Shown one piece after another: positions 9,548 to 35,396 of a stretch of DNA of 64,000 bases. The stretch spans positions 637,483 through 701,482 of the forward strand of contig OY970216.1 in NCBI GenBank assembly GCA_963713955.1, read 5' to 3'. Source of the DNA: an uncultured bacterium (GTDB taxonomy: Bacteria > Patescibacteriota > Minisyncoccia > UBA6257 > GWB1-50-10). A program made the position numbers and the translations under genes. A model generated the notes under the pieces. It did no database searches and was not told where the DNA came from. It saw only the letters and a list, made by a program, of their open reading frames with translations. Numbering within the stretch: the first letter of the stretch is position 1; each line of letters opens with the position of its first letter.

Positions 9548-10267
9548 TTATACTCTTTTTCTCACGATGACGAAGGGGGTCATCTTGTTCCCCTGCCCCA
9601 GCGGATTGTCGAGGAGGACGAGTCGCGCGGTTTTCTTGTCGAGACCGACCCCTCTGCTCACGCCTAAAATCTTCACGTTAATGTAATTAGCGTCGGCCGT
9701 CACGGCAGGCATGCCGGTATTCTCTTCCACTTTATCGCAAACACCCTGCGGATCCGGCGGCGGCAAAACCGCCCACTCGGTGTAGGGATACATGTCTTCG
9801 GGTATGAATCCATCGATTTCGGAGACGCGATGGCCGGCGATAATCCAAAAAAGGCCGCGGATGCCGACGACCTTCCCGATGGCGCCCAAGATCATCGCCG
9901 GAATGATTCTCCACGCGCCAGCTTCTTCTATCGCAATCTGCACCTTTTCCGGCCTTGACCAGGCCGTCATGTTTTTATATTTCCTGACCCCCCTCGTCAC
10001 GATGCGCGCGAGGAATGTCACTTTGACCGTCGAAATGTGCCGCACGCGGTTCTCCGATATAGAAATTATCTTTTCCGATATCGCCACCCAGTCACCCTTC
10101 TTGAAATGCGGCTTCACGAACTCCCGGAGAACGTTTTCCAGATTTTCCCCGAACTTGATGAGGCACGGCACTTTGATGGGGTAGCGCTCATAAACGACTC
10201 CGCCGACCGTCTTCTCGATGGCCGGCTGCATTACCGATCCACTGGTTGTTCTTTCCGCCCTCGCCAT
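9548..10267 (-). CDS. CofE-like (F420-0:gamma-glutamyl ligase family) protein
   Basis: GDWVAISEKIISISENR and VLPPPDPQGVCDKVEENTG resemble CofE VVxSTVISKAEGR and LLPPLDPDGSAEKL..TG. Function here is uncertain. Confidence 0.4.
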   Translation of the reverse strand: MARAERTTSGSVMQPAIEKTVGGVVYERYPIKVPCLIKFGENLENVLREFVKPHFKKGDWVAISEKIISISENRVRHISTVKVTFLARIVTRGVRKYKNMTAWSRPEKVQIAIEEAGAWRIIPAMILGAIGKVVGIRGLFWIIAGHRVSEIDGFIPEDMYPYTEWAVLPPPDPQGVCDKVEENTGMPAVTADANYINVKILGVSRGVGLDKKTARLVLLDNPLGQGNKMTPFVIVRKRV

Positions 10268-10294
10268 GGAGTTTTTTGCAGACCAGGTCTTGTA

Positions 10295-10933
10295 TTATTC
10301 AAGTTCAATTCTGAAATTGCTCGGCTCGCCGCCGCAATATTTTTGGAATCCGGCCCACTCCACGTTCCCCGCCGCCGGCTGCTCCATCCGTCCTTGTTCA
10401 TCAATCATGCCGCCAAAGGAACTGCAGAACGACAGCGTATCGATCGGAACGTCATTCTTCTCGGCGCTTTCGAAGGCTTCGTTCACTTCCGACTTGAAAT
10501 CGTCATCCAAGTCGCGGACCACCGTCCCGTTCGTCGAGGAGGCCGAGAGCATTTCCTTCATCTCTTCGAGTCTCCGTTCGGCGAATTTCTGGTGGAGATA
10601 GGGCCTCTTCGCCGCCGGCGCGAGAACCAGCGTGACGTTTTCACCGAGGCGCTTGAATGAATAGAGAGGGTGCGTCGGACTCACGTTGCTCCCCTCCGCA
10701 AACGCCACGAGCGCGCCGTTCAGCGCCACGATGACGGCAAAGACGAGGGAATACTTGAAAAATTTGTTGAAACCTTTCCTCGCAAGTACGACCGCCCCCC
10801 GCGAAGCGGCGAGCGCGCCGAGAAAATCGGCCCGCGCTCTGTCAAGAAAACGCTTGTCGGGTTTCATCGCTCTCCTCACGAGCACAATCGCTCTCAGGAA
10901 GCACCATTTTGATTTGAACGGCCTAATTTTCAT
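10295..10933 (-). CDS. Putative membrane-spanning anti-sigma factor (start may be internal Met at 10867)
   Basis: Overlaps the stop of the upstream ECF sigma gene by 11 nt; single TM helix YSLVFAVIVALNGALVAFA; no other recognisable domain. Confidence 0.45.
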   Translation of the reverse strand: MKIRPFKSKWCFLRAIVLVRRAMKPDKRFLDRARADFLGALAASRGAVVLARKGFNKFFKYSLVFAVIVALNGALVAFAEGSNVSPTHPLYSFKRLGENVTLVLAPAAKRPYLHQKFAERRLEEMKEMLSASSTNGTVVRDLDDDFKSEVNEAFESAEKNDVPIDTLSFCSSFGGMIDEQGRMEQPAAGNVEWAGFQKYCGGEPSNFRIELE

Positions 10934-22978: not shown

Positions 22979-24244
22979 CTACTTTTGAGCATTGTACATA
23001 GCCTGGATCTCAGCCGCAGACAATGCTCGATTATAGATGCGGACGTCGTCAAAAAGGCCATCCATCATCCATCCCGAAACACTTGAAATGCTGATGTTAT
23101 CCGAAGACAAAACATTCCCCGTCACCGAAGATATATTCACAGACCCTGATTGCTTTACTCCGTTCACGTAGACATATGCGAATCCCGCGGAACGATCGAA
23201 GACGATGGCGATATGAGCCCAGGTATTCTGAAGATCTGATGGCCGATACCCAGCGTCACATGCAACAAGTCCTGTCACTAAATTGGTACCATCATTGAAG
23301 TGGATGTTTATTCCTGTTGCACTATAGCTAGAATTGTCGATTGAATATCCAGGATGACCAGATTGATAAGAGTTACTGTTACCAATTGGGAAAAAGGCTC
23401 TTGGATAAACATAACTTCGGTGATAACCCCATCCCACGATCGTCAAACTTCCGGTTTGGGGATATAGGCTTGCATTGTTTCCAACGATCACATTATCATC
23501 CGTCCCATTGAAGTTCCCAGCGTATTGTCCCACCTTGCCTTGAGTATAGTAGGAACCATTGGTTATGGAACCAGACCACGTCCCCTGATTCCCATTCCCA
23601 CTCATATCATTAGGGTTTCCATCGAGGGGCCAGTAACCAACCAATCCATTCGTATTGAATAAGGGATTCAGGGAAAGGTTTGATCCATAAGCTATGACTC
23701 CAGGAATCATAGGAACCATAGGACTTCCTTCAATCTGAGACTTGTATTTCTGTGACTCAGGGAGACCGGTAAGTTCAAAGGAACCTCCCATGGTGTAGGT
23801 ATAGTAGAGGCCCGAACTCGTGGTGTTTATGGGATCAATAGGGAGCTTTGACAAAGGAGAACCTGATGAAATGAGGGTTAGATTGACGGGAATCCAGCCT
23901 GTTCCGTCTACCTTGGTTGAGGAAGAGCTTGGAACACAGTGATAACTCCAGCCTGTGGGAGGGGTAGGGAGACCCAAGGAGCCGCAGGTCGAAGAAGCGT
24001 TGTCGGGAACTGAGAGATAGAGGGTATTTGGAGTCCCTAAAGATTGACTCCACTCATCTGCCTGGAAGAGAGATAAAGCACTGTTTAAAGCTGCCAAGTC
24101 AGACAAACGAGTGGAATCTCTTCCCTGGGCCAGAAGCTGGGCAGGATTCAGGACGAGGACGACTGCGGTTGCGAGGACAGCAAGGATTGCTATCACAACC
24201 AGGAGCTCAATCAATGTAAAAGATTCTCTACTTCGCAGATTCAT
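22979..24244 (-). CDS. Prepilin-type N-terminal cleavage/methylation domain protein with C-terminal LamG (concanavalin A-like) domain, paralog 1
   Basis: Start at MNLRSRES|FTLIELLVVIAILAVLA (type IV pilin class III signal, Glu+5); C-terminal GLFDDVRIYNRALSAAEIQAMYNAQK (Laminin_G_3-type motif). The 51 upstream codons of the track ORF read through repeat C and are rejected. Confidence 0.8.
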   Translation of the reverse strand: MNLRSRESFTLIELLVVIAILAVLATAVVLVLNPAQLLAQGRDSTRLSDLAALNSALSLFQADEWSQSLGTPNTLYLSVPDNASSTCGSLGLPTPPTGWSYHCVPSSSSTKVDGTGWIPVNLTLISSGSPLSKLPIDPINTTSSGLYYTYTMGGSFELTGLPESQKYKSQIEGSPMVPMIPGVIAYGSNLSLNPLFNTNGLVGYWPLDGNPNDMSGNGNQGTWSGSITNGSYYTQGKVGQYAGNFNGTDDNVIVGNNASLYPQTGSLTIVGWGYHRSYVYPRAFFPIGNSNSYQSGHPGYSIDNSSYSATGINIHFNDGTNLVTGLVACDAGYRPSDLQNTWAHIAIVFDRSAGFAYVYVNGVKQSGSVNISSVTGNVLSSDNISISSVSGWMMDGLFDDVRIYNRALSAAEIQAMYNAQK

Positions 24245-24297
24245 TAGTTCAATTATAGCAGGAAAACGTCCTGCCTTTTTGTTCTGGGAGGAGAGTG

Positions 24298-24394
24298 TAG
24301 TTATCCACAGATTTATGGAGAGCGGGAAGCCATAATGAGAGCGGGAGGCCATATAATTGGGGGATAACTCCGTTGCGGCTCCCGGTGCGGAGTC
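24298..24394. repeat. Intergenic repeat, family C copy 2 (with an internal 20-nt duplication), just upstream of pilin-like gene 1
   Basis: agttatccacagatttatggagagcgggaagccataatgagagcgggaggccatataattgggggataactccgttgcggctcccggtgcggagtcc. Confidence 0.65.
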
Positions 24395-24463
24395 CAAATT
24401 TCTATTCCCTATCCCTCTAACCCGTCCGAGCCTTGAGGAGAAATCGAGTTAATGCATCTCTGT

Positions 24464-25255: not shown

Positions 25256-25340
25256 ATTTTCATCCGGGCTTTCGATAAAAATTTTTCCAGTTCGGTTTTT
25301 ACAGCTGGAGGAGACATTTGTTCTAACTTTACTACTCCTG

Positions 25341-25613
25341 TTACTGCACCTCATTCTGAACTTCTTCAGACCCGACCGGAGCGGCAGGCACCTGTAGCGA
25401 TGATAGTTTTGTTCGTATAGACCCTAAAAGTGTATTGGTAACCTTGGAGATGTCACCTATTTCCTCCAGCAAGTTAACTATTTTATTTATTTTCCAATAC
25501 CAACAGAAAAACTCGCGCAAAATAATGAAAAGACATATCGCTATCACTATCCATGCTATAAAAACCAACGCGTTGGAACTGCTCACCAGTTGCCCAAAAA
25601 TAAATTGATTCAT
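25341..25613 (-). CDS. Hypothetical small membrane protein (island)
   Basis: 90 aa, one TM helix, AT-rich coding. Confidence 0.4.
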   Translation of the reverse strand: MNQFIFGQLVSSSNALVFIAWIVIAICLFIILREFFCWYWKINKIVNLLEEIGDISKVTNTLLGSIRTKLSSLQVPAAPVGSEEVQNEVQ

Positions 25614-25656
25614 ATTCAGTTTTTACCCCCTAACTTCCTCGACCTTTCAAAAACTA

Positions 25657-25992
25657 CTACTTCTTGGAGAAATTTTTATAAACCTTATTTATGAAGTAAG
25701 CAATGGCACCTAAAGAAATTACCTCTACCACTAACCCGGCCACAGGATTGATGCCACTAAGGAAAATGGATATAACTAATTGAATAATAGCTATTATCAA
25801 AAGAGCAATTGTAACAAACGTTAAAACCCTACTCCACCTTGTAGTATTTCCATCAAACTTCTCGATAGAATCCTTCAATCGTCGCATCATTTCAACTTGA
25901 GCACCTTGAGACTTGAGACCACTTGTTGTACCTATAACTGTCTCACTAGCCAAGTTTACCAATTCTTCGTCTTTTTTATTTTTAAATTCCAT
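25657..25992 (-). CDS. Hypothetical small membrane protein (island)
   Basis: 111 aa, two C-terminal TM helices. Confidence 0.4.
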   Translation of the reverse strand: MEFKNKKDEELVNLASETVIGTTSGLKSQGAQVEMMRRLKDSIEKFDGNTTRWSRVLTFVTIALLIIAIIQLVISIFLSGINPVAGLVVEVISLGAIAYFINKVYKNFSKK

Positions 25993-26151
25993 AATTTATC
26001 TCAATTATTTCTACAACTTCTATTGTTCTAGCTCCAATCTAACCACATTTCAAGGAAAAGCTGGGCCCGGGTCCTGCTTCCTGCCTGGGGCAACGTCTTC
26101 GCGGCCAACAATATTACCTAAGGTAAACTATTATGTTCTCGTTCCATAGTT

Positions 26152-26772
26152 CTATTTATTCCAACCAAAAAGGTAAACGAGATAAGCAATGACTAGGCCT
26201 ATAATAACTGTAGATATGATCTTATTTTTCTTAATCCAACGCCAGGCATTACCAAAAACAAGTCTCCAATACGCACGATGCGGATTTTTAACATCCTTAA
26301 TGGTAATTCCTTCTGGCGTGAATTCTTTCCCTACCTGGACAAAAGACACTGAACCACCAGCACCACCATCGCCGCCCTTGCTACCATTGAATCCATGACC
26401 ACCGTGACCGCCAGAAGCCTCAATTTTAGGTCCGGAGCTCTTCGGCTCGAACAATGACTTGAATTCCTCTTCGCCCATACTTTCTAGTTTCCCGTGTATA
26501 TAATTCAGATCCTGTATCACAGCATCAATATCATCGAGAATTTCCACATTGTTTGAAAAGGCAGAAAGATACACATCACTATTCTTGCTTAACGCGTTAA
26601 TATACTTCTCATACTTGCCGTAGGCCTGAGTCAATCCGGCCCGATGTATCAATAATGTCCGTTCCCGTGAGTCGGAAGATAACGAATAATCGGCGTTCAC
26701 AAAGGTTCGCCGGTAATTTTCAACCTGAGAACGAAAGACTGAAACTTGTGTTTTTAAATCATTAATTGTCAT
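26152..26772 (-). CDS. Hypothetical protein with Gly-rich segment and C-terminal TM anchor (island)
   Basis: Start at MTINDLKT; SGGHGGHGFNGSKGGDGGAGGS; C-terminal IISTVIIGLVIAYLVYLFGW. Confidence 0.4.
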   Translation of the reverse strand: MTINDLKTQVSVFRSQVENYRRTFVNADYSLSSDSRERTLLIHRAGLTQAYGKYEKYINALSKNSDVYLSAFSNNVEILDDIDAVIQDLNYIHGKLESMGEEEFKSLFEPKSSGPKIEASGGHGGHGFNGSKGGDGGAGGSVSFVQVGKEFTPEGITIKDVKNPHRAYWRLVFGNAWRWIKKNKIISTVIIGLVIAYLVYLFGWNK

Positions 26773-26798
26773 TACTCTCTGGCACACCTACTCATCTG

Positions 26799-26850
26799 GC
26801 AGTTCACTAACAATCCAAGCCGGGCGATGCCCGGCTTGGAAGTGATTGAC
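26799..26850 (-). terminator. Hairpin terminator downstream of the R-M pair
   Basis: CCAAGCCGGGCAUCGCCCGGCUUGG on the minus strand followed by AUUGUUAG. Confidence 0.4.
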
Positions 26851-26967
26851 TTTCGAGTCGGGGCTCTTTCTCTCTATTCCCCGCCTGCTCTTTATTCGAT
26901 TACCTTAATTTTAACCCTCTTAAATTAGAACACAAAGAAGTTGTCCACCTTGCCTCCAGAGCTTGGA

Positions 26968-27765
26968 TCAGATGATTGTCGTCACTTTTTCGTACAACAT
27001 TGGCAAACAATCCTGCCTCATGCGGAATTTTGTCCCATGATTGTGGCCAGTGCGGGCATCGAAATCAACAAGCACATTGCCCTTTTCTAAAGCCTTCAAG
27101 AATCCTTCGAAGCTAAATTTCTGCAACATCATCACTTTTGTATATTTGTAATATTCTTTTCCACGTTCTACCTTCGATTCCGCTTGAACATAGAAAGCAT
27201 TAAGTAATTTCGTACCAGCCTTATGTTCTAGATCATCAAATCCCCAATACGGTTGCGGATCAAGTTCACCTAACCCGGTTCGTTTCTTGACTAGCTTAAG
27301 CCAATCCTTGTGTCTAGGATCAACACTTTTGGCATTAAACGAAACTAAGACCTTCTCTTCCTTACGATCTATGGTAACTTTAAAACCACGATCGCTTCGT
27401 GACTTACCATGAATAGTTTGACGAAAACTCATCTCGCCTTTCCTATACAGCTTCCCCGCTTCCTCATGGGGCCATCCGTATAGAGGAAGTAAAACCTGGG
27501 GCACGAATCTTATAGCACGGGGCGACGGTTCAGTATGAAATAGTGTGGTTAGCGAGGTGGTGTTTGTCCTCTGCGCCTTCAATTCCCACTCCGCCGCGTT
27601 CGGGATTGGTAGGTTATTCTCTTTAATACCAAGCAGATCCTCAAGTGTATTACCTACGCCGCCAGTATTACCCCTCCGTGCGTTTGGGATCCACCCCATC
27701 GCAGAAATTTTTCTCAGTTTTGCTATCAATGCTGGTTTTGTATAGATTACTGGTCTCTTCTTCAT
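26968..27765 (-). CDS. Type II restriction endonuclease, MvaI/BcnI family-like
   Basis: N-terminal LRKISAMGWIPNARRGNTGGVGNTLEDLLGIKENNLPIPNAAEWELK resembles the MvaI/BcnI catalytic N-terminus; 3 nt downstream of an N4/N6 MTase. Confidence 0.6.
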   Translation of the reverse strand: MKKRPVIYTKPALIAKLRKISAMGWIPNARRGNTGGVGNTLEDLLGIKENNLPIPNAAEWELKAQRTNTTSLTTLFHTEPSPRAIRFVPQVLLPLYGWPHEEAGKLYRKGEMSFRQTIHGKSRSDRGFKVTIDRKEEKVLVSFNAKSVDPRHKDWLKLVKKRTGLGELDPQPYWGFDDLEHKAGTKLLNAFYVQAESKVERGKEYYKYTKVMMLQKFSFEGFLKALEKGNVLVDFDARTGHNHGTKFRMRQDCLPMLYEKVTTII

Positions 27766-27767
27766 AG

Positions 27768-28577
27768 TTATAAGAGCTTTGACTGGTGTTTATACTCTTT
27801 AATTCTCTTTTCTGCCATCTCACAATATTCTGGTGAGACATCTATTCCTATATAGTTTCGCTTATTGTTCATCGCAGCAATTGCTGTAGTACCAGAACCC
27901 ATAAATGGATCCAAGATCATCTTGGCATTCGTCGCGGAAACAATCCGGTCAATTAAATTAACCGGAAAGGCAGCGGGATGTTCATTATTCATTTCTTGAG
28001 TAAATTCCCAAACATCGCCACGAGCATTAGCTTTTGGCGAAAGTTTGAACTTAGGCTTGGCAATCAGATAGATTACCTCGTAAGTTGGAAGGAAATAACC
28101 CGGGTTGAAATTCAATCCCCCTTTTCGCTTCCAGATAATAATCTGGCGAATTGGAAAACCACTGACGATATCCTGACGATCTTGCAGTAAACCACCCTGC
28201 ACGCGCCACTTGTGGTTGTAAAAAATTGCACCATCATCTGGTATAACTCGCATCATCTCTGTCAGGCAATCTCTTTGCCACTTAACATATTCTTCGTGTG
28301 GCATACAGTCATCATGGTTCGCATACCCTTTTTGAAGTGCGGCATTGGCCCATTTGCCACCTCGACCATCTTTCATTCCATTGCCAGTAGAATTCTTCAA
28401 GTTATAGGGCGGCGAAGTGACCACCAGATCAACCGCCCCATCCGGTATCTGTCTCATTACATCAACTGCATCACCACAAATGATCTTGTTTATAAAATCT
28501 TTGGGAAATCTAATGTCTTTTGAGATTTGTTTATTCGGAGTAATAGTTCCTCTTTTTAATACTGTTGATGGTTTCAT
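27768..28577 (-). CDS. DNA methyltransferase, beta-class N4-cytosine/N6-adenine (SPPY motif)
   Basis: DLVVTSPPYNL (motif IV) and LDPFMGSGTTAIAA (FxGxG SAM-binding motif I) in circularly permuted beta order, as in M.MvaI/M.BcnI-type m4C MTases. Confidence 0.85.
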   Translation of the reverse strand: MKPSTVLKRGTITPNKQISKDIRFPKDFINKIICGDAVDVMRQIPDGAVDLVVTSPPYNLKNSTGNGMKDGRGGKWANAALQKGYANHDDCMPHEEYVKWQRDCLTEMMRVIPDDGAIFYNHKWRVQGGLLQDRQDIVSGFPIRQIIIWKRKGGLNFNPGYFLPTYEVIYLIAKPKFKLSPKANARGDVWEFTQEMNNEHPAAFPVNLIDRIVSATNAKMILDPFMGSGTTAIAAMNNKRNYIGIDVSPEYCEMAEKRIKEYKHQSKLL

Positions 28578-28722
28578 GATGGGAAGGATATAAGCTAATA
28601 TTACCCCATTTTTCTGTATTTTTCATCATCGAATATTATACGCAGCCGTGTTTAGTCATTTATTTAGATCCTTCCTTTTTCCCTTTTCTCCAACCACCAT
28701 TTCTTGAAAAACGGCATAAAAA

Positions 28723-29188: not shown

Positions 29189-29884
29189 ATGGACCTCAAT
29201 GGCAAAATCGTTGTTATTACAGGTGGCAGCAAAGGTTTAGGTAGATCTCTGGCTGAACTTTTGTCAAAAGAAGGTGCGAAACTGGCTATCTGTTCTCCCG
29301 AGGAGGAGGAAATTCTTGCGGTTGCGAAGGAGATTGGTTGCTTGGGAATACGAGCCGATGTACGCCGCGAAGAAGAAGTTAAAAAACTTGCTGAACTTAC
29401 GGAGCGGGAATTTGGAAGAATTGACATATGGATAAACAATGCCGGCATCCGGATTCCGAGAGTTCCACTCGAGGATACAGACATGAAAAGAGTGCACGAG
29501 ATGGTGGAAGTGAATCTTTTCGGGACAATGTACGGTTCCAAGGCGGCGATGATCCAAATGAAAAAACGAAAAGAAGGTACAATCGTAAACATACTTTCGA
29601 CAAGTGCACTTGAGGGAGCGAAATATTCCACCGGATACGGAGCCAGCAAGGGCGGAGCCATAGCTTTTACGAAATCGCTCAGAGTAGAACTTTCACCCTT
29701 TGGAATAAGTGTCATCGGTGTTTATCCCAAGGGAATGAGAACGGAGTTTTTCCGCGAGAATAAGCCAGCTGATTATGAAAAATACATGGACCCAAGAGAA
29801 GTAGCACGGCAAATCGTGAACAATCTCAAGAAAAACAAACCGGAAGAAGAATTCTTCATCAAAACTGATCCGTCTGCTCCTTAA
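29189..29884 (+). CDS. Short-chain dehydrogenase/reductase (SDR) family oxidoreductase
   Basis: ITGGSKGLG (TGxxxGxG), NNAG, YGASKGG (YxxxK). Confidence 0.85.
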   Translation: MDLNGKIVVITGGSKGLGRSLAELLSKEGAKLAICSPEEEEILAVAKEIGCLGIRADVRREEEVKKLAELTEREFGRIDIWINNAGIRIPRVPLEDTDMKRVHEMVEVNLFGTMYGSKAAMIQMKKRKEGTIVNILSTSALEGAKYSTGYGASKGGAIAFTKSLRVELSPFGISVIGVYPKGMRTEFFRENKPADYEKYMDPREVARQIVNNLKKNKPEEEFFIKTDPSAP

Positions 29885-29937
29885 GTTCTCCTCCCACAAA
29901 CAAAAAAGCATGGCGTTTTCCTGCTATAATTGAACTA

Positions 29938-31157
29938 ATGAACTTTCGTTTCAGAGAATCTTTTACCTTAATTGAGCTTCTTGTAGTCATAGCCATCCTT
30001 GCCGTCTTAGCAACCGCCGTCATCCTAATCCTGAATCCTGCCCAGCTCTTAGCCCAAGGAAGAGACTCCACCAGACTCTCTGATCTTGCAGCTCTGAATA
30101 GTGCTCTCTCCCTCTTCCAGGCTGATCAATGGAGTCAATCCATGGGATTAGCTTCCACCACCTATATCTCAGTCCCTGATCATCATCCACCTGTGGTAAT
30201 CTAGGCCTCCCTGCCTTACCTTCAGGCTATTCCTATCACTGTGTCCCCAGTGCTTCCTCCACGAGAATAGATGGTACCGGCTGGATTCCCGTCAATCTAA
30301 CCCTCATATCATCAGGATCTCCTCTTTCGAAGCTCCCCCTAGACCCCCTGAACACTACCTCGAGTGGAGAATACTATACCTATACGCCAGGAGGATCCTT
30401 TGAACTCACGGCCATACCCGAGTCCCAGAAGTACCGCGCTCAGTATCAAACCATTCCTCCCCTTCAGAACATTCCTGGAGTTATAGCCTATGGATCGAAT
30501 CTTTCCCTCTCTCCCCTCTTCAATACCCAAGGGTTAGTGGGGTATTGGCCGCTGGATGGAAACTCTAATGATATGTCTGGGAATGGGAATAATGGGAGTT
30601 TAACGGCGGGGGTAGGATGGGGAAACGGTAAAATTGGTTCAGCGTTGAGTTTAAATGGTAGTGGTAATGATTACGCTCGGGTTTCTCGTGTGGTGGCCAA
30701 TGATTTTTCAATTTGTTTATATGTTAAGGCATTGAGTGATTCTACGTCGGGATCGCAATGGTACCATGGACAGGGACTTTTTGATTCAGAGGTTAGTGGT
30801 GTCGTGAACGACTACGGCGTAGCATATCTTAATAACAAGGCTGCGTTTGGTACGGGGAACCCCGACACAACTATCCAGAGCACCCAATTCATAAACGATG
30901 GAATATGGCATCAAGTATGTGCTACCAGGATACAAAGTAGCGGAAGCATTTTTTTGTACGTAGACAGCAATTTACAGGCGAGTACAACTGAGGCGAATAC
31001 CGCATCTCTCACGGCACCGACATATTCTTATATGGGCAGCTCAAATGGAGGTGTCGGAAATCACGGGATCATTAATGGCCTCATCGACGACGTTCGCGTC
31101 TACAACAGGGCTTTGTCAGCAGCAGAGATTGCGGCTATATACAACGCCCAGAAATAA
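29938..31157 (+). pseudogene. Prepilin::LamG paralog 2, disrupted by a frameshift (4-nt deficit relative to paralog 3 near 30170-30200)
   Basis: Frame A 29938..30204 (MNFRFRES|FTLIELLVVIAILAVLA...SVPDHHPPVVI*); frame B continues ..SSSTCGNLGLPALPSGYSYHCVPSASSTRIDGTGWIPVNLT.. through 30537..31157 (..GLIDDVRVYNRALSAAEIAAIYNAQK). Confidence 0.6.
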
Positions 31158-31165
31158 ATACTCAA

Positions 31166-31196
31166 CCTCCCGCTCTCCATAAATCTGTGGATAACT
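31166..31196. repeat. Family C repeat, 5' module in inverted orientation, between paralogs 2 and 3
   Basis: cctcccgctctccataaatctgtggataact is the reverse complement of agttatccacagatttatggagagcgggagg. Confidence 0.6.
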
Positions 31197-31251
31197 ATCT
31201 CCTCCTTTCAAAAACAAAAAGCCAGGACATTTTCCTGCTATAATTAAACAA

Positions 31252-32478
31252 ATGAACTTTCGTTCCCGAAGCAGCTTCACTTTGATCGAGCTCCTTGTCG
31301 TGATCGCGATCCTGGCTGTCCTAGCCACAGCAGTCGTCCTAGTCTTAAACCCCTCCCAGCTCCTTGCTCAGGGAAGGGATTCCACCCGTCTCTCAGACCT
31401 GGCAGCTCTGAATAGCGCTTTATCCTTGTTCCAGGCTGATGCCTATACCCAGTCATTGGGGACTCCCAATACCCTCTACATCTCAGTCCCTGACAATGCC
31501 TCCTCCACCTGTGGATCCCTGGGTCTTCCCACCCCTCCCACAGGCTATTCCTATCACTGTGTCCCCAGTGCTTCCTCCACGAGAATAGATGGTACCGGCT
31601 GGATTCCCGTCAATCTAACCCTCATATCATCAGGATCTCCTCTTTCGAAGCTCCCTATTGATCCCATAAACACTACCTCATCTGGTCTCTACTACACCTA
31701 TGTCTCAGGAGGATCATATGAATTGACCGGTCTACCTGAATCACAGAAGTACAAGGCACAGATTGAAGGCAACCCAATGATTCCCATGATTCCCGGAGTC
31801 ATAGCCTATGGTTCCAACCTTACCTTATCTCCCTTGTTCAGTACCCAGGGGTTAGTGGGCTATTGGCCTCTCGATGAAGGGTCCGGCTCAACAGCCAATG
31901 ATATGAGTGGGAATGGGAATAATGGGACGTGGAATGGAAGTGGAACGCATTATGCTCAGGGTAAGGTTGGGGGGTTCGCTGGGCAATTCAATGGGACAAG
32001 CACACAAGATTACACTAGCGCTCCTTATAACACTTCACTCAATGTAACGAGTCTTACTATAACCGCCTGGGTCAAAAACTCGGCAACGGGAGAGAGGGTT
32101 GTCGCCTCAAAATTTGGTTCATCACCTTATCAAGGTTATTGGTTTGGCGAAGACAGTGGTGGTGGATTGCGGGTTTGCTTAGGTACAGGTGGTCAGACAT
32201 GTATTAATAAGGGACTTTTTCCTACCGATAATACCTGGCATTTTATTTCTTTTACTTATGACAATACGACCGGTACTTGGAATTTCTATATTGATGCTTC
32301 TACAACTGGTTCATCTACGGCAGTTACCGCTATAGCACCGGTTAATACGGATTTTCGGATCGGAGTCGGCCAGTGGAGTTCAAGCGACTATTTTCAGGGA
32401 CTAATCGACGATGTTCGTATCTACAACCGAGCGTTGTCCGCAGCGGAGATAGCTGCTATCTATAACGCACAGAAGTAA
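31252..32478 (+). CDS. Prepilin::LamG paralog 3
   Basis: MNFRSRSS|FTLIELLVVIAILAVLA..; C-terminal GLIDDVRIYNRALSAAEIAAIYNAQK. Confidence 0.8.
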   Translation: MNFRSRSSFTLIELLVVIAILAVLATAVVLVLNPSQLLAQGRDSTRLSDLAALNSALSLFQADAYTQSLGTPNTLYISVPDNASSTCGSLGLPTPPTGYSYHCVPSASSTRIDGTGWIPVNLTLISSGSPLSKLPIDPINTTSSGLYYTYVSGGSYELTGLPESQKYKAQIEGNPMIPMIPGVIAYGSNLTLSPLFSTQGLVGYWPLDEGSGSTANDMSGNGNNGTWNGSGTHYAQGKVGGFAGQFNGTSTQDYTSAPYNTSLNVTSLTITAWVKNSATGERVVASKFGSSPYQGYWFGEDSGGGLRVCLGTGGQTCINKGLFPTDNTWHFISFTYDNTTGTWNFYIDASTTGSSTAVTAIAPVNTDFRIGVGQWSSSDYFQGLIDDVRIYNRALSAAEIAAIYNAQK

Positions 32479-34457: not shown

Positions 34458-35396
34458 TTATTTCCAGGGGAAGTCGCGGCCGAAATGGCCCCACGCGGCC
34501 GTGTCGGCCCATTTTACAGTATCGAGTTTCAGGAACTCGTAAATTCCTCTGGGCGAGAGATCATATCCCGCGATCTCCATCTCTTTCCCGTCAATCTCGG
34601 CGACAGCCATGACCGGATCCTTTTTCCCGATCGCGTAGGCAAGTTTTACTCGCACATTCTCCGCTCCATATTTCTCGAGATAGTCTACGGCAATCCGCCG
34701 CGCCATGTAGGCGCCGCTCCGGTCCACTTTCGTGTAATCCTTGCCCGAGAACGAACCGCCGCCGACGCCGATTTCCGGACCGTAGTTGTCAATCACAATC
34801 TTTCTTCCCGAAAGGCCCGAGTCAGCGTCGAATCCGCCGACCGGCCACTCTCCCGTCGGGTTTATCAAATACTTATCAGCTTGTATTATTTCCCGAGCCA
34901 GTTTCTCGAGATCCGGCGTTTTTGTGGTCTGGAAACTCGCGACGACAGTTTTTGCTCTGCCGTCTTCCACCGTCACCTGCGTCTTGCCATCAAAAGGATA
35001 TTTTTCATAGATCTTCCGACAGACATCACGCGCAAGCTCATATTCCAGAGGCATGTAGTTCTTGGTCTCGCGGGTCGCATACCCGATCATAATTCCCTGA
35101 TCGCCGGCGCCTCCGGCATCGACGCCCTGCCCGATGTACTGGCTCTGTTTCACGACGAACGTCCGAACCTCGAAACTCGGACCGACGAGATTCTTCACAA
35201 TCCCCACGATATCAACGTTCGCACCACTCGTGACTTCACCGGAAACAGTTATCTGACCGTGGCCGCCGACCGCTTCCAAGGCGACGCGGCTTTTCGGATC
35301 TCCCTTCATAAATTCATCGAGGAGGGTATCCACGATGACGTCGCACATCTTGTCGGGATGCTTCGGCGATACGAATTCTGCTGTTTTTATGTTCAT
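34458..35396 (-). CDS. metK: S-adenosylmethionine synthetase (compact, 312 aa)
   Basis: SPKHPDKMCD, GAGDQG, GGGSFSGKD, DRSGAY signatures. Confidence 0.85.
   Translation of the reverse strand: MNIKTAEFVSPKHPDKMCDVIVDTLLDEFMKGDPKSRVALEAVGGHGQITVSGEVTSGANVDIVGIVKNLVGPSFEVRTFVVKQSQYIGQGVDAGGAGDQGIMIGYATRETKNYMPLEYELARDVCRKIYEKYPFDGKTQVTVEDGRAKTVVASFQTTKTPDLEKLAREIIQADKYLINPTGEWPVGGFDADSGLSGRKIVIDNYGPEIGVGGGSFSGKDYTKVDRSGAYMARRIAVDYLEKYGAENVRVKLAYAIGKKDPVMAVAEIDGKEMEIAGYDLSPRGIYEFLKLDTVKWADTAAWGHFGRDFPWK

What the first reader, a model, noticed from the sequence alone, without database searches (positions are those of the whole stretch)
25300..28720. AT-rich island carrying an MvaI/BcnI-like REase + m4C/m6A MTase pair and three small membrane/Gly-rich ORFs
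GC drops from ~55% to ~35% over ~3.4 kb. All five genes are co-directional. The MTase (SPPY, beta-class) is 3 nt upstream of an REase whose N-terminus resembles MvaI/BcnI (CCWGG/CCSGG cutters with N4mC MTases). No integrase, recombinase or tRNA flank is present, so the mobility mechanism is unclear.
Basis: partly seen in the sequence, partly recalled or inferred. Interest (0 to 1): 0.5.

Follow-up and report, generated by a model that had tools for sequence, protein, structure and literature searches.

The report
MvaI/BcnI-type restriction-modification islet in a Patescibacterium
A 3.5-kb stretch of unusually AT-rich DNA in a small candidate-phyla-radiation (Patescibacteria) genome carries an ordinary two-gene restriction-modification defence cassette that is very widespread in that group, followed by three small membrane-protein genes. 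One of those three belongs to an undescribed family that elsewhere sits inside restriction-modification operons.

Summary
Region 25300-28720 has 41.3% GC against 51.5% for the rest of the window. It is the lowest 3.4-kb stretch and the strongest tetranucleotide outlier. Five co-directional minus-strand genes have GC3 of 0.33-0.44 against a window mean of 0.61.

The interpretation also holds.
- The 265-aa protein matches Pfam MvaI_BcnI over its full length (E 3e-67) and solved MvaI (E 1e-21).
- The 269-aa protein, 2 nt upstream, is a beta-class SPPY amino-methyltransferase. Its closest solved relative is an N4-cytosine methyltransferase.

New findings:
1. The mobile unit is only these two genes. 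At least 585 hits in species-representative genomes carry it. The best 80 are nearly all Patescibacteria and share about 81% amino-acid identity with saturated third codon positions. Their flanks are unrelated.
2. In this clade the metal-bridging Asp of MvaI/BcnI is Asn56, with a co-varying acidic residue at +3.
3. ORF211 belongs to a rare, unannotated family. In 8 of 10 contexts it lies in type I R-M operons next to hsdS (7 confirmed between hsdM and hsdS).

No recombinase, tRNA or flanking repeats were found. Mobility and target site (CCNGG-type, central base unresolved) remain inferred. Verdict: a new member of a known kind, of modest interest.

The parts
25256..28722 (.). Compositionally atypical (AT-rich) segment. 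It runs from the true start of the amidohydrolase gene to the stop of the MazG-like gene.
   Evidence: GC is 41% against 51.5% for the rest of the window, the lowest 3.4-kb stretch. This is also the tetranucleotide-distance peak, and GC3 is 0.33-0.44. The flanking genes have host-like GC3: amidohydrolase 0.62 and MazG-like 0.66. The public gene call and homologues start the amidohydrolase at MIID, which corresponds to window 25255.
27768..28577 (-). DNA methyltransferase, 269 aa, beta-class amino-MTase with an SPPY motif IV. It is predicted to make N4-methylcytosine.
   Evidence: Pfam N6_N4_Mtase E 2.6e-40. The best solved relative is the rotifer DNA cytosine-N4 MTase 8s9n (E 2.9e-36), followed by CcrM (1.9e-16). 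It matches PADLOC MTase_II model PDLC03305 at 5.5e-123. It lies directly upstream of the REase in 82 of 83 loci.
26968..27765 (-). Type II restriction endonuclease, 265 aa, of the MvaI/BcnI (MutH-like, monomeric) family. Predicted active-site residues are E42, N56, E59, E61 and K63.
   Evidence: Pfam MvaI_BcnI E 3.3e-67, full length. PDB MvaI E 1.1e-21 and BcnI 6.6e-6. With a family profile these become 4e-39 and 5e-29. PADLOC REase_II 7.6e-78.
28578..28722 (-). A 145-nt AT-rich (34% GC) spacer upstream of the MTase. It is the presumed promoter region and contains a TATAAT hexamer at 28640-28635.
   Evidence: Sequence read; GC. The promoter scan found no full two-hexamer match here, so promoter function is an inference only. 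DNA similarity to one other cassette (L001) reaches 28639.
26814..26840 (-). Perfect 12-bp G+C-rich hairpin (3-nt loop) between the REase stop and ORF211. It is a probable terminator or transcript-stabilising stem, and it separates the R-M pair from the small ORFs.
   Evidence: Found by the repeat finder (I17) and the terminator scan. Folding energy is -28.6 kcal/mol with z = -6.4 against shuffles. The U-tract is weak (UUGUU). The hairpin is not part of the DNA shared with other cassettes.
26152..26772 (-). ORF211 (206 aa from the ATG; the GTG-extended ORF reaches 26787). It has an N-terminal four-helix bundle, a Gly-rich linker, a conserved VQVGKEFTPEGITIKDxKNPHxxYW motif and a C-terminal transmembrane anchor. 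It belongs to an unannotated family associated with R-M systems.
   Evidence: About 25 clusters were found among 5.8e9 proteins. There are no significant hits in Pfam or PHROGs and none in PADLOC. The AF2 model has pLDDT of about 90 for residues 1-110 and is disordered over 116-158. Foldseek against the PDB gave nothing below E 0.4. Eight of 10 distinct contexts lie in type I R-M operons directly upstream of hsdS, 7 of them confirmed between hsdM and hsdS.
25657..25992 (-). ORF111, a small protein with a soluble N-terminal part and two C-terminal transmembrane helices. It is an orphan.
   Evidence: It is called as a gene in the public assembly. Only sub-threshold Pfam and PHROG hits were found, including a holin PHROG at E 0.03. 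It is absent from all other cassette loci and from loci carrying ORF211 homologues.
25341..25613 (-). ORF90, a small protein with an N-terminal transmembrane helix.
   Evidence: It matches phrog_28494 (unknown function) at E 7.4e-7. There is no tblastn match in the GenBank phage collection. It is absent from the other loci.

Best explanation
The segment is a small defence islet in a Patescibacteria (CPR) chromosome.

Core cassette. The core is an orthodox two-gene Type IIP restriction-modification cassette transcribed on the minus strand. First comes a beta-class SPPY methyltransferase, inferred to N4-methylate a cytosine in the target. Two nucleotides downstream, and probably translationally coupled, is a monomeric MutH-like endonuclease of the MvaI/BcnI family.

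Inferred mechanism. By analogy with MvaI and BcnI, the endonuclease clamps a 5-bp CCNGG-type pseudopalindrome. It nicks one strand after the second C, then rebinds in the opposite orientation to cut the other strand. N4-methylation of the inner cytosine protects host DNA. All residues that read the two outer C:G pairs in MvaI are conserved. The residues that read the central base pair match neither MvaI nor BcnI, so W, S or N at the centre is unresolved.

Origin. The cassette is a widely distributed module in Patescibacteria under strong purifying selection. Its own narrow composition (about 40% GC) makes it look like an AT-rich island in this 51% GC host. It sits in unrelated contexts in other genomes, so it was most likely acquired horizontally. 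The route is not visible here: there is no recombinase, tRNA or repeat.

Small ORFs. A strong hairpin separates the cassette from three small membrane-protein genes that are not part of it. The first, ORF211, belongs to a family that elsewhere is embedded in type I R-M operons. It is most likely an accessory, possibly abortive-infection-like, membrane component riding with R-M systems.

Shown: gene identities, family membership, composition shift, cassette limits, distribution, purifying selection, and the genomic association of ORF211.
Inferred: m4C, target sequence, cleavage mechanism, horizontal acquisition, and any function of the small ORFs.
For: Family assignment.

Composition.

Cassette is two genes only.
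- DNA similarity of 73-76% to 80 loci is confined to window 26960-28639.
- The MTase is directly upstream of the REase in 82 of 83 loci.
- The three small ORFs occur in none of the other loci.

Purifying selection on both genes.
- Mean amino-acid identity is 0.81.
- Codon-position identity for the REase is 0.82 / 0.90 / 0.44.
- 158 of 262 REase alignment columns are at least 95% conserved across 80 species.

Distribution.
- 6966 database proteins match at E <= 1e-5.
- At least 585 hits were found in species-representative genomes. The best 80 are nearly all labelled Patescibacteria lineages.

Cassette composition. GC is 40.4 +/- 3.2% while host flanks span 31-59% (slope 0.36). The cassette is lower than its flanks in 54 of 63 loci.

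Context. Flanking genes are variable. Defence genes recur in the slot directly downstream (HNH, GmrSD_N, Z1, AAA_15/21), and a large serine recombinase lies within 5 kb in 9 of about 78 loci.

Base contacts. MvaI base-contact residues R25, N28, T29, T68, T102, D207, H223, H225 and R230 map to identical residues in the query.

ORF211. Seven clusters lie between hsdM and hsdS, often with 4-nt overlaps. One more lies directly upstream of hsdS at a contig end, and one is in a NERD/GmrSD island.
Against: - The canonical metal-bridging Asp (MvaI D50, BcnI D55) is Asn56 here, so catalysis cannot be assumed identical to the solved enzymes.
- No methylome or cleavage data exist for this clade. CCWGG depletion is only modest: O/E 0.77 in the window and 0.69 over all loci, against 0.90 and 0.79 for CCSGG. 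It is not significant after multiple testing.
- Horizontal acquisition is not demonstrated for this genome. No close relative with an empty site could be found: the best amidohydrolase homologues are 46-57% identical and the one whose neighbouring genes were read (L085) is not syntenic. No insertion scars were seen.
- The function of ORF211 rests on gene neighbourhood alone. The fold search gave only generic helical-bundle matches.
Confidence: 0.8

Rival explanations
1. The cassette is not a recent import. It is an old, largely vertically kept Patescibacteria module, and its low GC reflects an intrinsic compositional and coding constraint rather than foreign origin. On this reading the 'island' signal is a property of the genes, not evidence of mobility.
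For: Third codon positions are saturated (0.44 identity) while proteins stay at about 81% identity, so divergence is old. Cassette GC is pinned to 34-47% whatever the host GC, and it exceeds its flanks in 9 of 63 loci. No mobility genes or scars are present in the window. Pairwise identities are star-like at 74-90%.
Against: Flanking genes are unrelated in essentially every locus. The same roughly 80%-identical cassette occurs in lineages as distant as Saccharibacteria, Microgenomates-type and Gracilibacteria groups, and in contigs labelled DPANN archaea. Serine recombinases and other defence genes lie nearby in a subset of loci. The three neighbouring small ORFs share the low GC3 yet are not part of the cassette.
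Confidence: 0.15
2. The endonuclease of this clade is not a classical double-strand-cutting restriction enzyme. With Asn in place of the metal-bridging Asp it may be catalytically attenuated, a nickase, or a MutH-like methyl-directed enzyme. The pair would then act mainly as a methylation or nicking system rather than a restriction barrier.
For: N56 is present in 120 of 120 close homologues and 17 of 54 diverse representatives. In MvaI, D50 ligates both metal ions. The family is structurally related to the nickase MutH. Single substitutions convert BcnI into a strand-specific nickase. Query K246 replaces BcnI H219, one of the two switchable histidines needed to bind in both orientations.
Against: There is strong purifying selection on the REase and strict linkage to a protective MTase, which is the signature of a toxic, active nuclease. 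An acidic residue at +3 (E59) co-varies with N56 (15 of 17 against 11 of 35, p = 2.4e-4). It lies on the same face of the strand as E61 and K63, so the active site may simply be rearranged. E42, E61 and K63 are intact.
Confidence: 0.1
3. The three small ORFs are functionally unrelated passengers. They could be lineage-specific ORFans or remnants of a degraded prophage or other element, sharing only the low GC of imported DNA with the R-M pair.
For: None of the three occurs next to the cassette in 80 other loci. ORF111 and ORF90 showed no relatives in the libraries and fetched loci examined here; neither was searched against the large protein collections. ORF90 matches a phage protein family of unknown function. 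A strong hairpin separates them from the R-M transcript.
Against: The ORF211 family is found inside type I R-M operons in 8 of 10 independent contexts, and in a defence island in a ninth. Its placement next to an R-M pair here is therefore unlikely to be chance. In other genomes the slot downstream of the REase is recurrently filled by defence genes.
Confidence: 0.3

Closest known systems
MvaI R-M system (Kocuria varians; R.MvaI CC^WGG, M.MvaI N4mC), structures 2OA9/2OAA
   Same: Full-length homology: E 1e-21 for the single sequence and 4e-39 for the family profile. The two-lobed MutH-like architecture is implied. E36, E55 and K57 equivalents are conserved, as are all residues contacting the outer C:G pairs: N28, T29, T68, T102, D207, H223, H225 and R230. 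It is paired with an SPPY-type amino-MTase.
   Different: Only about 30% identity. The metal-bridging D50 is Asn56. R209, which reads the central T and the G at +1, is Asp236. T71 is His77. A loop of about 9 residues before the HxH motif is missing. The MTase here is a small 269-aa enzyme whose nearest solved relative is N4CMT. M.MvaI itself was not compared.
BcnI (Brevibacillus centrosporus; CC^SGG), structures 2ODH/2ODI/3IMB
   Same: Same family: profile E 5e-29. His77 is at the position of BcnI H77, one of the two histidines reading the central C:G pair. The E-x-K and upstream Glu are conserved.
   Different: BcnI H219 aligns with Lys246. BcnI D32/D33 (minor-groove contact) align with N33/T34. 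D55 aligns with Asn56. Single-sequence similarity is significant only over the N-terminal 80 residues.
Adineta vaga N4CMT (8S9M/8S9N), a bacterial-origin N4-cytosine MTase, and CcrM-type beta-class MTases
   Same: The MTase aligns over residues 25-263 with the N4CMT catalytic domain (E 3e-36). It shares the SPPY motif IV, the beta-class motif order and the FxGxG SAM motif.
   Different: N4CMT prefers YACGTR/CpG contexts and carries a chromodomain. Here the partner REase implies a CCNGG-type target. CcrM-type enzymes have DPPY and methylate adenine.
Passenger genes embedded in type I R-M operons (for example RhuM, Fic, PrrC/RloC-type anticodon nucleases, Abi-like genes). This comparison is from general knowledge for PrrC/RloC; RhuM, Fic and PycTM were seen in the loci examined here.
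   Same: ORF211-family genes occupy the same hsdM-hsdS slot, often overlapping hsdM by 4 nt. In those operons they sit beside RhuM, Fic or PycTM genes.
   Different: There is no sequence or fold similarity to any of them. There are no significant matches in Pfam or PHROGs and none in PADLOC. The protein is tail-anchored in the membrane with a Gly-rich linker. Here it lies next to a type II pair, not a type I system.

Membership tests
MvaI/BcnI restriction endonuclease family (PF15515) | Full-length match to the family profile above the curated threshold | tested here: met
   227.3 bits against a cut-off of 25, E 3.3e-67, profile positions 1-227 of 227. PADLOC REase_II PDLC03524 E 7.6e-78.
MvaI/BcnI restriction endonuclease family (PF15515) | Sequence homology to the solved members MvaI and BcnI | tested here: met
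   MvaI 2oa9 E 1.1e-21 and BcnI 2odh 6.6e-6. With a 41-sequence family profile these become 4.1e-39 and 5.3e-29.
MvaI/BcnI restriction endonuclease family (PF15515) | Catalytic Glu ... Glu-x-Lys (MvaI E36, E55, K57) | tested here: met
   E42, E61 and K63 align with them and are conserved in 49-52 of 54 representatives. The residue roles come from PMC1874612.
MvaI/BcnI restriction endonuclease family (PF15515) | Metal-bridging Asp of the PD motif (MvaI D50, BcnI D55) | tested here: not met
   The query has Asn56. The same holds in 120 of 120 close homologues and 17 of 54 diverse representatives. An acidic residue at +3 co-varies with it. This is a clade-wide variant and not a sign of decay, because purifying selection is strong.
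MvaI/BcnI restriction endonuclease family (PF15515) | Recognition of CC(W/S)GG and cleavage after the second C by a monomer acting twice | not testable with these tools
   The outer-pair contact residues are conserved, but the central-pair readers differ from both solved enzymes. Word-frequency depletion is weak.
Type II R-M system (orthodox, separate M and R genes) | Adjacent co-oriented cognate methyltransferase | tested here: met
   The MTase ends 2 nt before the REase start. The same arrangement is seen in 82 of 83 loci.
Beta-class N4/N6 amino-methyltransferases (PF01555) | Profile match, with motif IV (xPPY) N-terminal to the SAM-binding motif I | tested here: met
   PF01555 139 bits against a cut-off of 26.7. 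SPPY lies at residues 54-57 and DPFMGSGTT at about 221-229 in the translation. The definition of beta-class motif order is taken from PMC10406627.
N4-cytosine-specific subgroup of beta-class MTases | Ser at the first position of motif IV (SPPY/SPPF), and closest relatives that are m4C enzymes | tested here: met
   SPPY is present. The best solved relative is N4CMT (E 2.9e-36), which is 20 orders of magnitude better than CcrM. The methylated base itself cannot be tested here.
Horizontally acquired genomic island | Composition distinct from the host | tested here: met
   GC, GC3 and tetranucleotide outlier.
Horizontally acquired genomic island | Mobility marks: integrase or recombinase, tRNA target, flanking direct repeats | tested here: not met
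   None found among the 20 ORFs Pfam-scanned between about 17.4 and 37.8 kb. The only tRNA is 9 kb away. Only short chance-level repeats were found.
Horizontally acquired genomic island | Presence/absence polymorphism in close relatives (an empty site) | tested here: inconclusive
   The closest amidohydrolase homologues in the metagenome scan are 46-57% identical, and the one whose neighbouring genes were read (L085) is in a different context.
Horizontally acquired genomic island | The same module found in unrelated genomic contexts and distant taxa | tested here: met
   80 loci have unrelated flanks. Similarity is confined to the two coding sequences.

The most novel reading that the evidence does not exclude
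ORF211-family proteins are a previously undescribed, membrane-anchored accessory component of restriction-modification systems in Patescibacteria. They have a four-helix bundle, a Gly-rich linker, an NPHxxYW juxtamembrane motif and a transmembrane tail. They may act as an abortive-infection-like effector or as a membrane tether, and they can partner with both type I and type II systems. On this reading the five-gene block is a composite defence islet, not an R-M pair with random neighbours. In parallel, the very widespread, about 80%-conserved MvaI/BcnI-type cassette with an Asn-for-Asp active site may use a rearranged (E59-dependent) or one-metal catalytic centre.
Probability: 0.25. Interest if true: 0.55.

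Novelty: new member of a known kind. Interest (0 to 1): 0.33.

Why it matters
The R-M pair itself is routine. Public annotation pipelines already name its homologues 'MvaI/BcnI family restriction endonuclease', and a defence-gene model library matches it.

Three side results may be useful.
1. One small, very strongly conserved R-M cassette is shared by hundreds of Patescibacteria species that otherwise have few defence systems. Its target motif would be a common methylation mark for binning or host-linking in long-read metagenomes, and a barrier to consider when attempting genetics in these organisms.
2. The clade offers a natural Asp-to-Asn variant of a well-studied monomeric restriction enzyme active site, with a candidate compensating Glu. 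A single mutagenesis experiment could test this.
3. A rare unannotated membrane protein family is tightly linked to R-M operons and is a candidate new accessory defence gene.

Tried and rejected
- Empty-site test. A metagenome scan with the flanking amidohydrolase gave only 46-57% identical homologues, and the one whose neighbouring genes were read (L085) is not syntenic. This was inconclusive.
- Relatedness of the best cassette-carrying genomes. tblastx of L001 and L005 against the window shared only the two R-M genes.
- Terminal repeats or insertion scars around the cassette or the five-gene block. Only short, low-identity chance repeats were found.
- Target-site inference from word depletion. 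CCWGG is the most depleted of 32 XYNY'X' words in the window (O/E 0.77), but only rank 4 across all loci. It is not significant after multiple testing, so I treat it as a hint only.
- Target-site inference from recognition residues. The central-pair readers match neither MvaI nor BcnI.
- Function of ORF211. There were no significant hits in Pfam, NCBIfam or PHROGs and none in PADLOC. Foldseek of the AF2 model against the PDB gave only generic helical bundles, including weak HEPN-toxin hits at E about 1. An Rx4-6H HEPN motif is not conserved in the family alignment, so I rejected HEPN.
- Homology between ORF111 or ORF90 and the genes neighbouring ORF211 homologues. None was found.
- ORF90 against GenBank phages. 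No match.
- Literature search for this cassette or a CCWGG m4C motif in CPR. Nothing was found in the searchable library. One 2026 preprint surveys CPR methyltransferases generally but does not mention MvaI or BcnI.

Full report
**1. Observation**

The window averages 50.9% GC. Region 25300-28720 is 41.3% GC against 51.5% for the remainder. It is the minimum of all sliding 3.4-kb windows (mean 50.8%, sd 3.1%). The lowest non-overlapping window elsewhere is 48.2%. The 500-nt trough is 35.4% at 25500-25999, and the immediate flanks are 45-51%.

The shift is clearer at synonymous sites. GC3 of the five genes is 0.33-0.44, against 0.61 +/- 0.08 for 65 other ORFs. The flanking amidohydrolase and MazG-like genes have GC3 of 0.62 and 0.66. 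The tetranucleotide distance from the window average peaks at 25401, at 0.407 against 0.204 +/- 0.056. A weaker anomaly continues to about 32 kb, over the SDR and pilin-like genes.

All five ORFs are on the minus strand. The amidohydrolase most likely starts at MIID (window 25255), as in the public gene call and in homologues. The segment is therefore bounded at 25256 and 28722.

**2. The R-M pair**

The 265-aa product of 26968-27765 matches Pfam MvaI_BcnI end to end (E 3.3e-67). It matches solved MvaI (E 1.1e-21) and BcnI. With a 41-sequence family profile these become 4e-39 and 5e-29.

The 269-aa product of 27768-28577 ends 2 nt before the REase start. It is a PF01555 amino-MTase (E 2.6e-40). 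Its SPPY motif is N-terminal to the SAM motif, which is the beta-class order. Its best solved relative is the rotifer N4-cytosine MTase (E 2.9e-36), against 1.9e-16 for the adenine MTase CcrM. m4C is therefore the likelier modification.

PADLOC type II models match both proteins. One is a 513-aa fused M-R model: the MTase scores 5.5e-123 and the REase 6e-77. The family is thus already represented in reference collections of R-M genes.

**3. What the mobile unit is**

The REase has 6966 database relatives at E <= 1e-5. The top 120 are 80-86% identical and are annotated, where named, as MvaI/BcnI family enzymes of Patescibacteria. A scan of species-representative genomes found at least 585 hits. 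The best 80 come from contigs labelled Saccharibacteria, Paceibacterota, Daviesbacteria, Gracilibacteria, Berkelbacteria, Kazan and others. A few are labelled DPANN archaea or Saganbacteria, and some carry automatic labels I would not trust.

In 82 of 83 loci the MTase lies directly upstream of the REase. DNA similarity to the window is 73-76% and is confined to 26960-28639. That is the two coding sequences plus at most 60 nt upstream. The flanks are unrelated.

Recurrent neighbours were identified:
- a large serine recombinase within 5 kb (9 of about 78 loci);
- defence-type genes directly downstream of the REase: HNH (7), GmrSD_N (4-5), Z1 (3), SDH-type protease (2-3) and AAA_15/21 (2);
- an XRE-type HTH directly upstream (3), resembling a controller protein.

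The three small ORFs of the window occur in none of these loci.

**4. Selection and composition of the cassette**

Against the window's genes, mean amino-acid identity is 0.81. REase codon-position identities are 0.82, 0.90 and 0.44, and those of the MTase are 0.83, 0.94 and 0.45. Synonymous sites are close to saturation while the proteins are held constant. Pairwise REase identity among 80 species is 74-100% with a median of 83%, and 158 of 262 columns are at least 95% conserved. Both genes are therefore functional and old.

Cassette GC is 40.4 +/- 3.2% while host flanks span 31-59% (r = 0.65, slope 0.36). The cassette is lower than its flanks in 54 of 63 loci. The cassette thus keeps a narrow composition of its own, and it appears as an AT-rich island here because this host is 51% GC. 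This weakens 'low GC means recent import' as an argument. The unrelated contexts and wide taxonomic spread still favour horizontal movement. Plasmid-borne homologues from cultured bacteria are only 28-37% identical.

**5. Active site and specificity**

In MvaI the catalytic residues are E36, D50, E55 and K57, and D50 ligates both metal ions (PMC1874612). The query keeps E42, E61 and K63 but has Asn56 at the D50 position. So do 120 of 120 close homologues and 17 of 54 diverse representatives; more distant members have Asp.

Asn56 co-occurs with an acidic residue three positions later (E59): 15 of 17 cases against 11 of 35 when Asp is present. Fisher p is 2.4e-4, not corrected for phylogeny. On a beta-strand, E59 would face the same side as E61 and K63. 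I infer a relocated acidic ligand rather than an inactivated enzyme. The purifying selection is consistent with that inference.

MvaI residues that contact the outer C:G pairs and the minor groove are identical in the query: R25, N28, T29, T68, T102, D207, H223, H225 and R230. A CC-N-GG frame is therefore likely.

The central-pair readers differ from both solved enzymes:
- MvaI R209 is Asp236.
- BcnI H77 is conserved as His77.
- BcnI H219 aligns with Lys246.

CCWGG is mildly depleted: O/E 0.77 in the window, the lowest of 32 comparable words, and 0.69 over all loci. CCSGG is at 0.90 and 0.79. This is a hint, not a determination.

**6. The three small ORFs**

A perfect 12-bp hairpin lies at 26814-26840 (-28.6 kcal/mol, z = -6.4). 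It sits between the REase stop and ORF211 and is not part of the shared cassette.

ORF211 is 206 aa from the ATG at 26772, matching the public call and its homologues. It has a confidently modelled N-terminal four-helix bundle, a disordered Gly-rich linker, an invariant NPHxxYW motif and a C-terminal transmembrane helix. It has no significant Pfam, NCBIfam or PHROG match, no PADLOC match and no significant fold match.

The family is rare, with about 25 clusters among 5.8e9 proteins. Its contexts are strikingly uniform:
- Seven distinct clusters lie between hsdM and hsdS of type I R-M operons, several overlapping hsdM by 4 nt (L091, L093, L096, L097, L098, L099, L100).
- One lies directly upstream of hsdS at a contig end (L101).
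- One lies in a NERD, GmrSD-HNH and EcoRI-methylase neighbourhood.

Its position next to a type II pair here fits an R-M-associated accessory role. The function itself is unknown, and my guess of a membrane effector or tether is inference from neighbourhood alone.

ORF111 (two C-terminal transmembrane helices) and ORF90 (one N-terminal transmembrane helix) are orphans in the searches run. ORF90 matches a phage protein family of unknown function at E 7e-7. Neither resembles the neighbours of ORF211 homologues.

**7. Mobility**

No recombinase, integrase or transposase domain was found among the 20 ORFs Pfam-scanned (the larger ORFs from about 17.4 to 37.8 kb and the small island ORFs). The only tRNA is 9 kb away, and no flanking repeats were found. 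An empty-site comparison was not possible.

**8. Verdict**

Both the observation and the interpretation are essentially right. The feature is an orthodox type II R-M cassette of a known family, so it is a new member of a known kind. Three points are worth keeping:
- the cassette's wide distribution across Patescibacteria under strong constraint;
- the clade-wide Asn-for-Asp active-site variant with a co-varying Glu;
- the R-M-linked ORF211 family.

Interest is modest at 0.33.

Noticed in passing
window 22979-24397 (-), 29938-31157 (+), 31252-32478 (+): Three paralogous genes encode type-IV-pilin-like (N_methyl) plus LamG proteins. They form long inverted repeats: 23620-24220 against 31276-31876 (601 nt, 79%) and 24042-24283 against 29899-30140 (242 nt, 81%). 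These repeats bracket the whole amidohydrolase, R-M, MazG and SDR segment and could be a substrate for inversion. The middle copy is split into two ORFs (29938-30204 and 30537-31157), either by a frameshift or as a pseudogene.
   Followed up: partly
window 29189-32478: The SDR gene and the pilin-like genes also have low GC3 (0.43-0.47 against a window mean of 0.61). Tetranucleotide distance stays high at 28.8-29 kb. The compositionally atypical stretch is therefore wider than the reported island.
   Followed up: partly
loci L004-L083 (cassette at about 10001-10795 in most): The same M-R cassette occurs at 78-86% amino-acid identity in hits from at least 585 species-representative genomes. The best 80 span many Patescibacteria classes and a few contigs labelled DPANN archaea or Saganbacteria. 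Third codon positions are saturated. This is unusually strong conservation for a restriction enzyme. I found no paper describing it.
   Followed up: partly
window 27589-27600 (codons N56-E59 of the REase): The metal-bridging Asp of the PD...ExK motif is Asn throughout this clade, and an acidic residue at +3 co-varies with it (15 of 17 against 11 of 35, p = 2.4e-4).
   Followed up: yes
L091 7339-7968; L093 5754-6362; L096 6317-6964; L097 6001-6618; L098 3392-3967; L099 6001-6675; L100 1520-2155; L101 59-643: ORF211-family genes are embedded in type I R-M operons next to hsdS, between hsdM and hsdS wherever the upstream gene is on the contig. Other passenger genes sit nearby, including RhuM, Fic, a PycTM-domain gene in L100 and several unannotated ORFs.
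   Followed up: yes
L020 7087-8952 (-): A 621-aa fusion of a LexA DNA-binding domain, Peptidase_S24 and an N6_N4 DNA methyltransferase lies next to an M-R cassette. It is a repressor-like, self-cleaving domain joined to a DNA MTase.
   Followed up: no
window 27768-28577: The closest solved structure to the MTase is the bdelloid-rotifer N4CMT, itself thought to derive from a bacterial gene. The match spans the whole catalytic domain at E 3e-36.
   Followed up: no
window 26814-26840: The strong hairpin downstream of the REase is built from CCGGG and CCCGG (BcnI-type sites) in its stem. This is probably coincidental.
   Followed up: no
window 25341-25613: ORF90 matches phage protein family phrog_28494 (unknown function) at E 7.4e-7, but has no tblastn hit in the GenBank phage collection.
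   Followed up: partly
window 34458-35396 (-): An S-adenosylmethionine synthetase gene lies 6 kb from the MTase. It appears shortened in its N-terminal and central domains, judging by partial Pfam matches.
   Followed up: no
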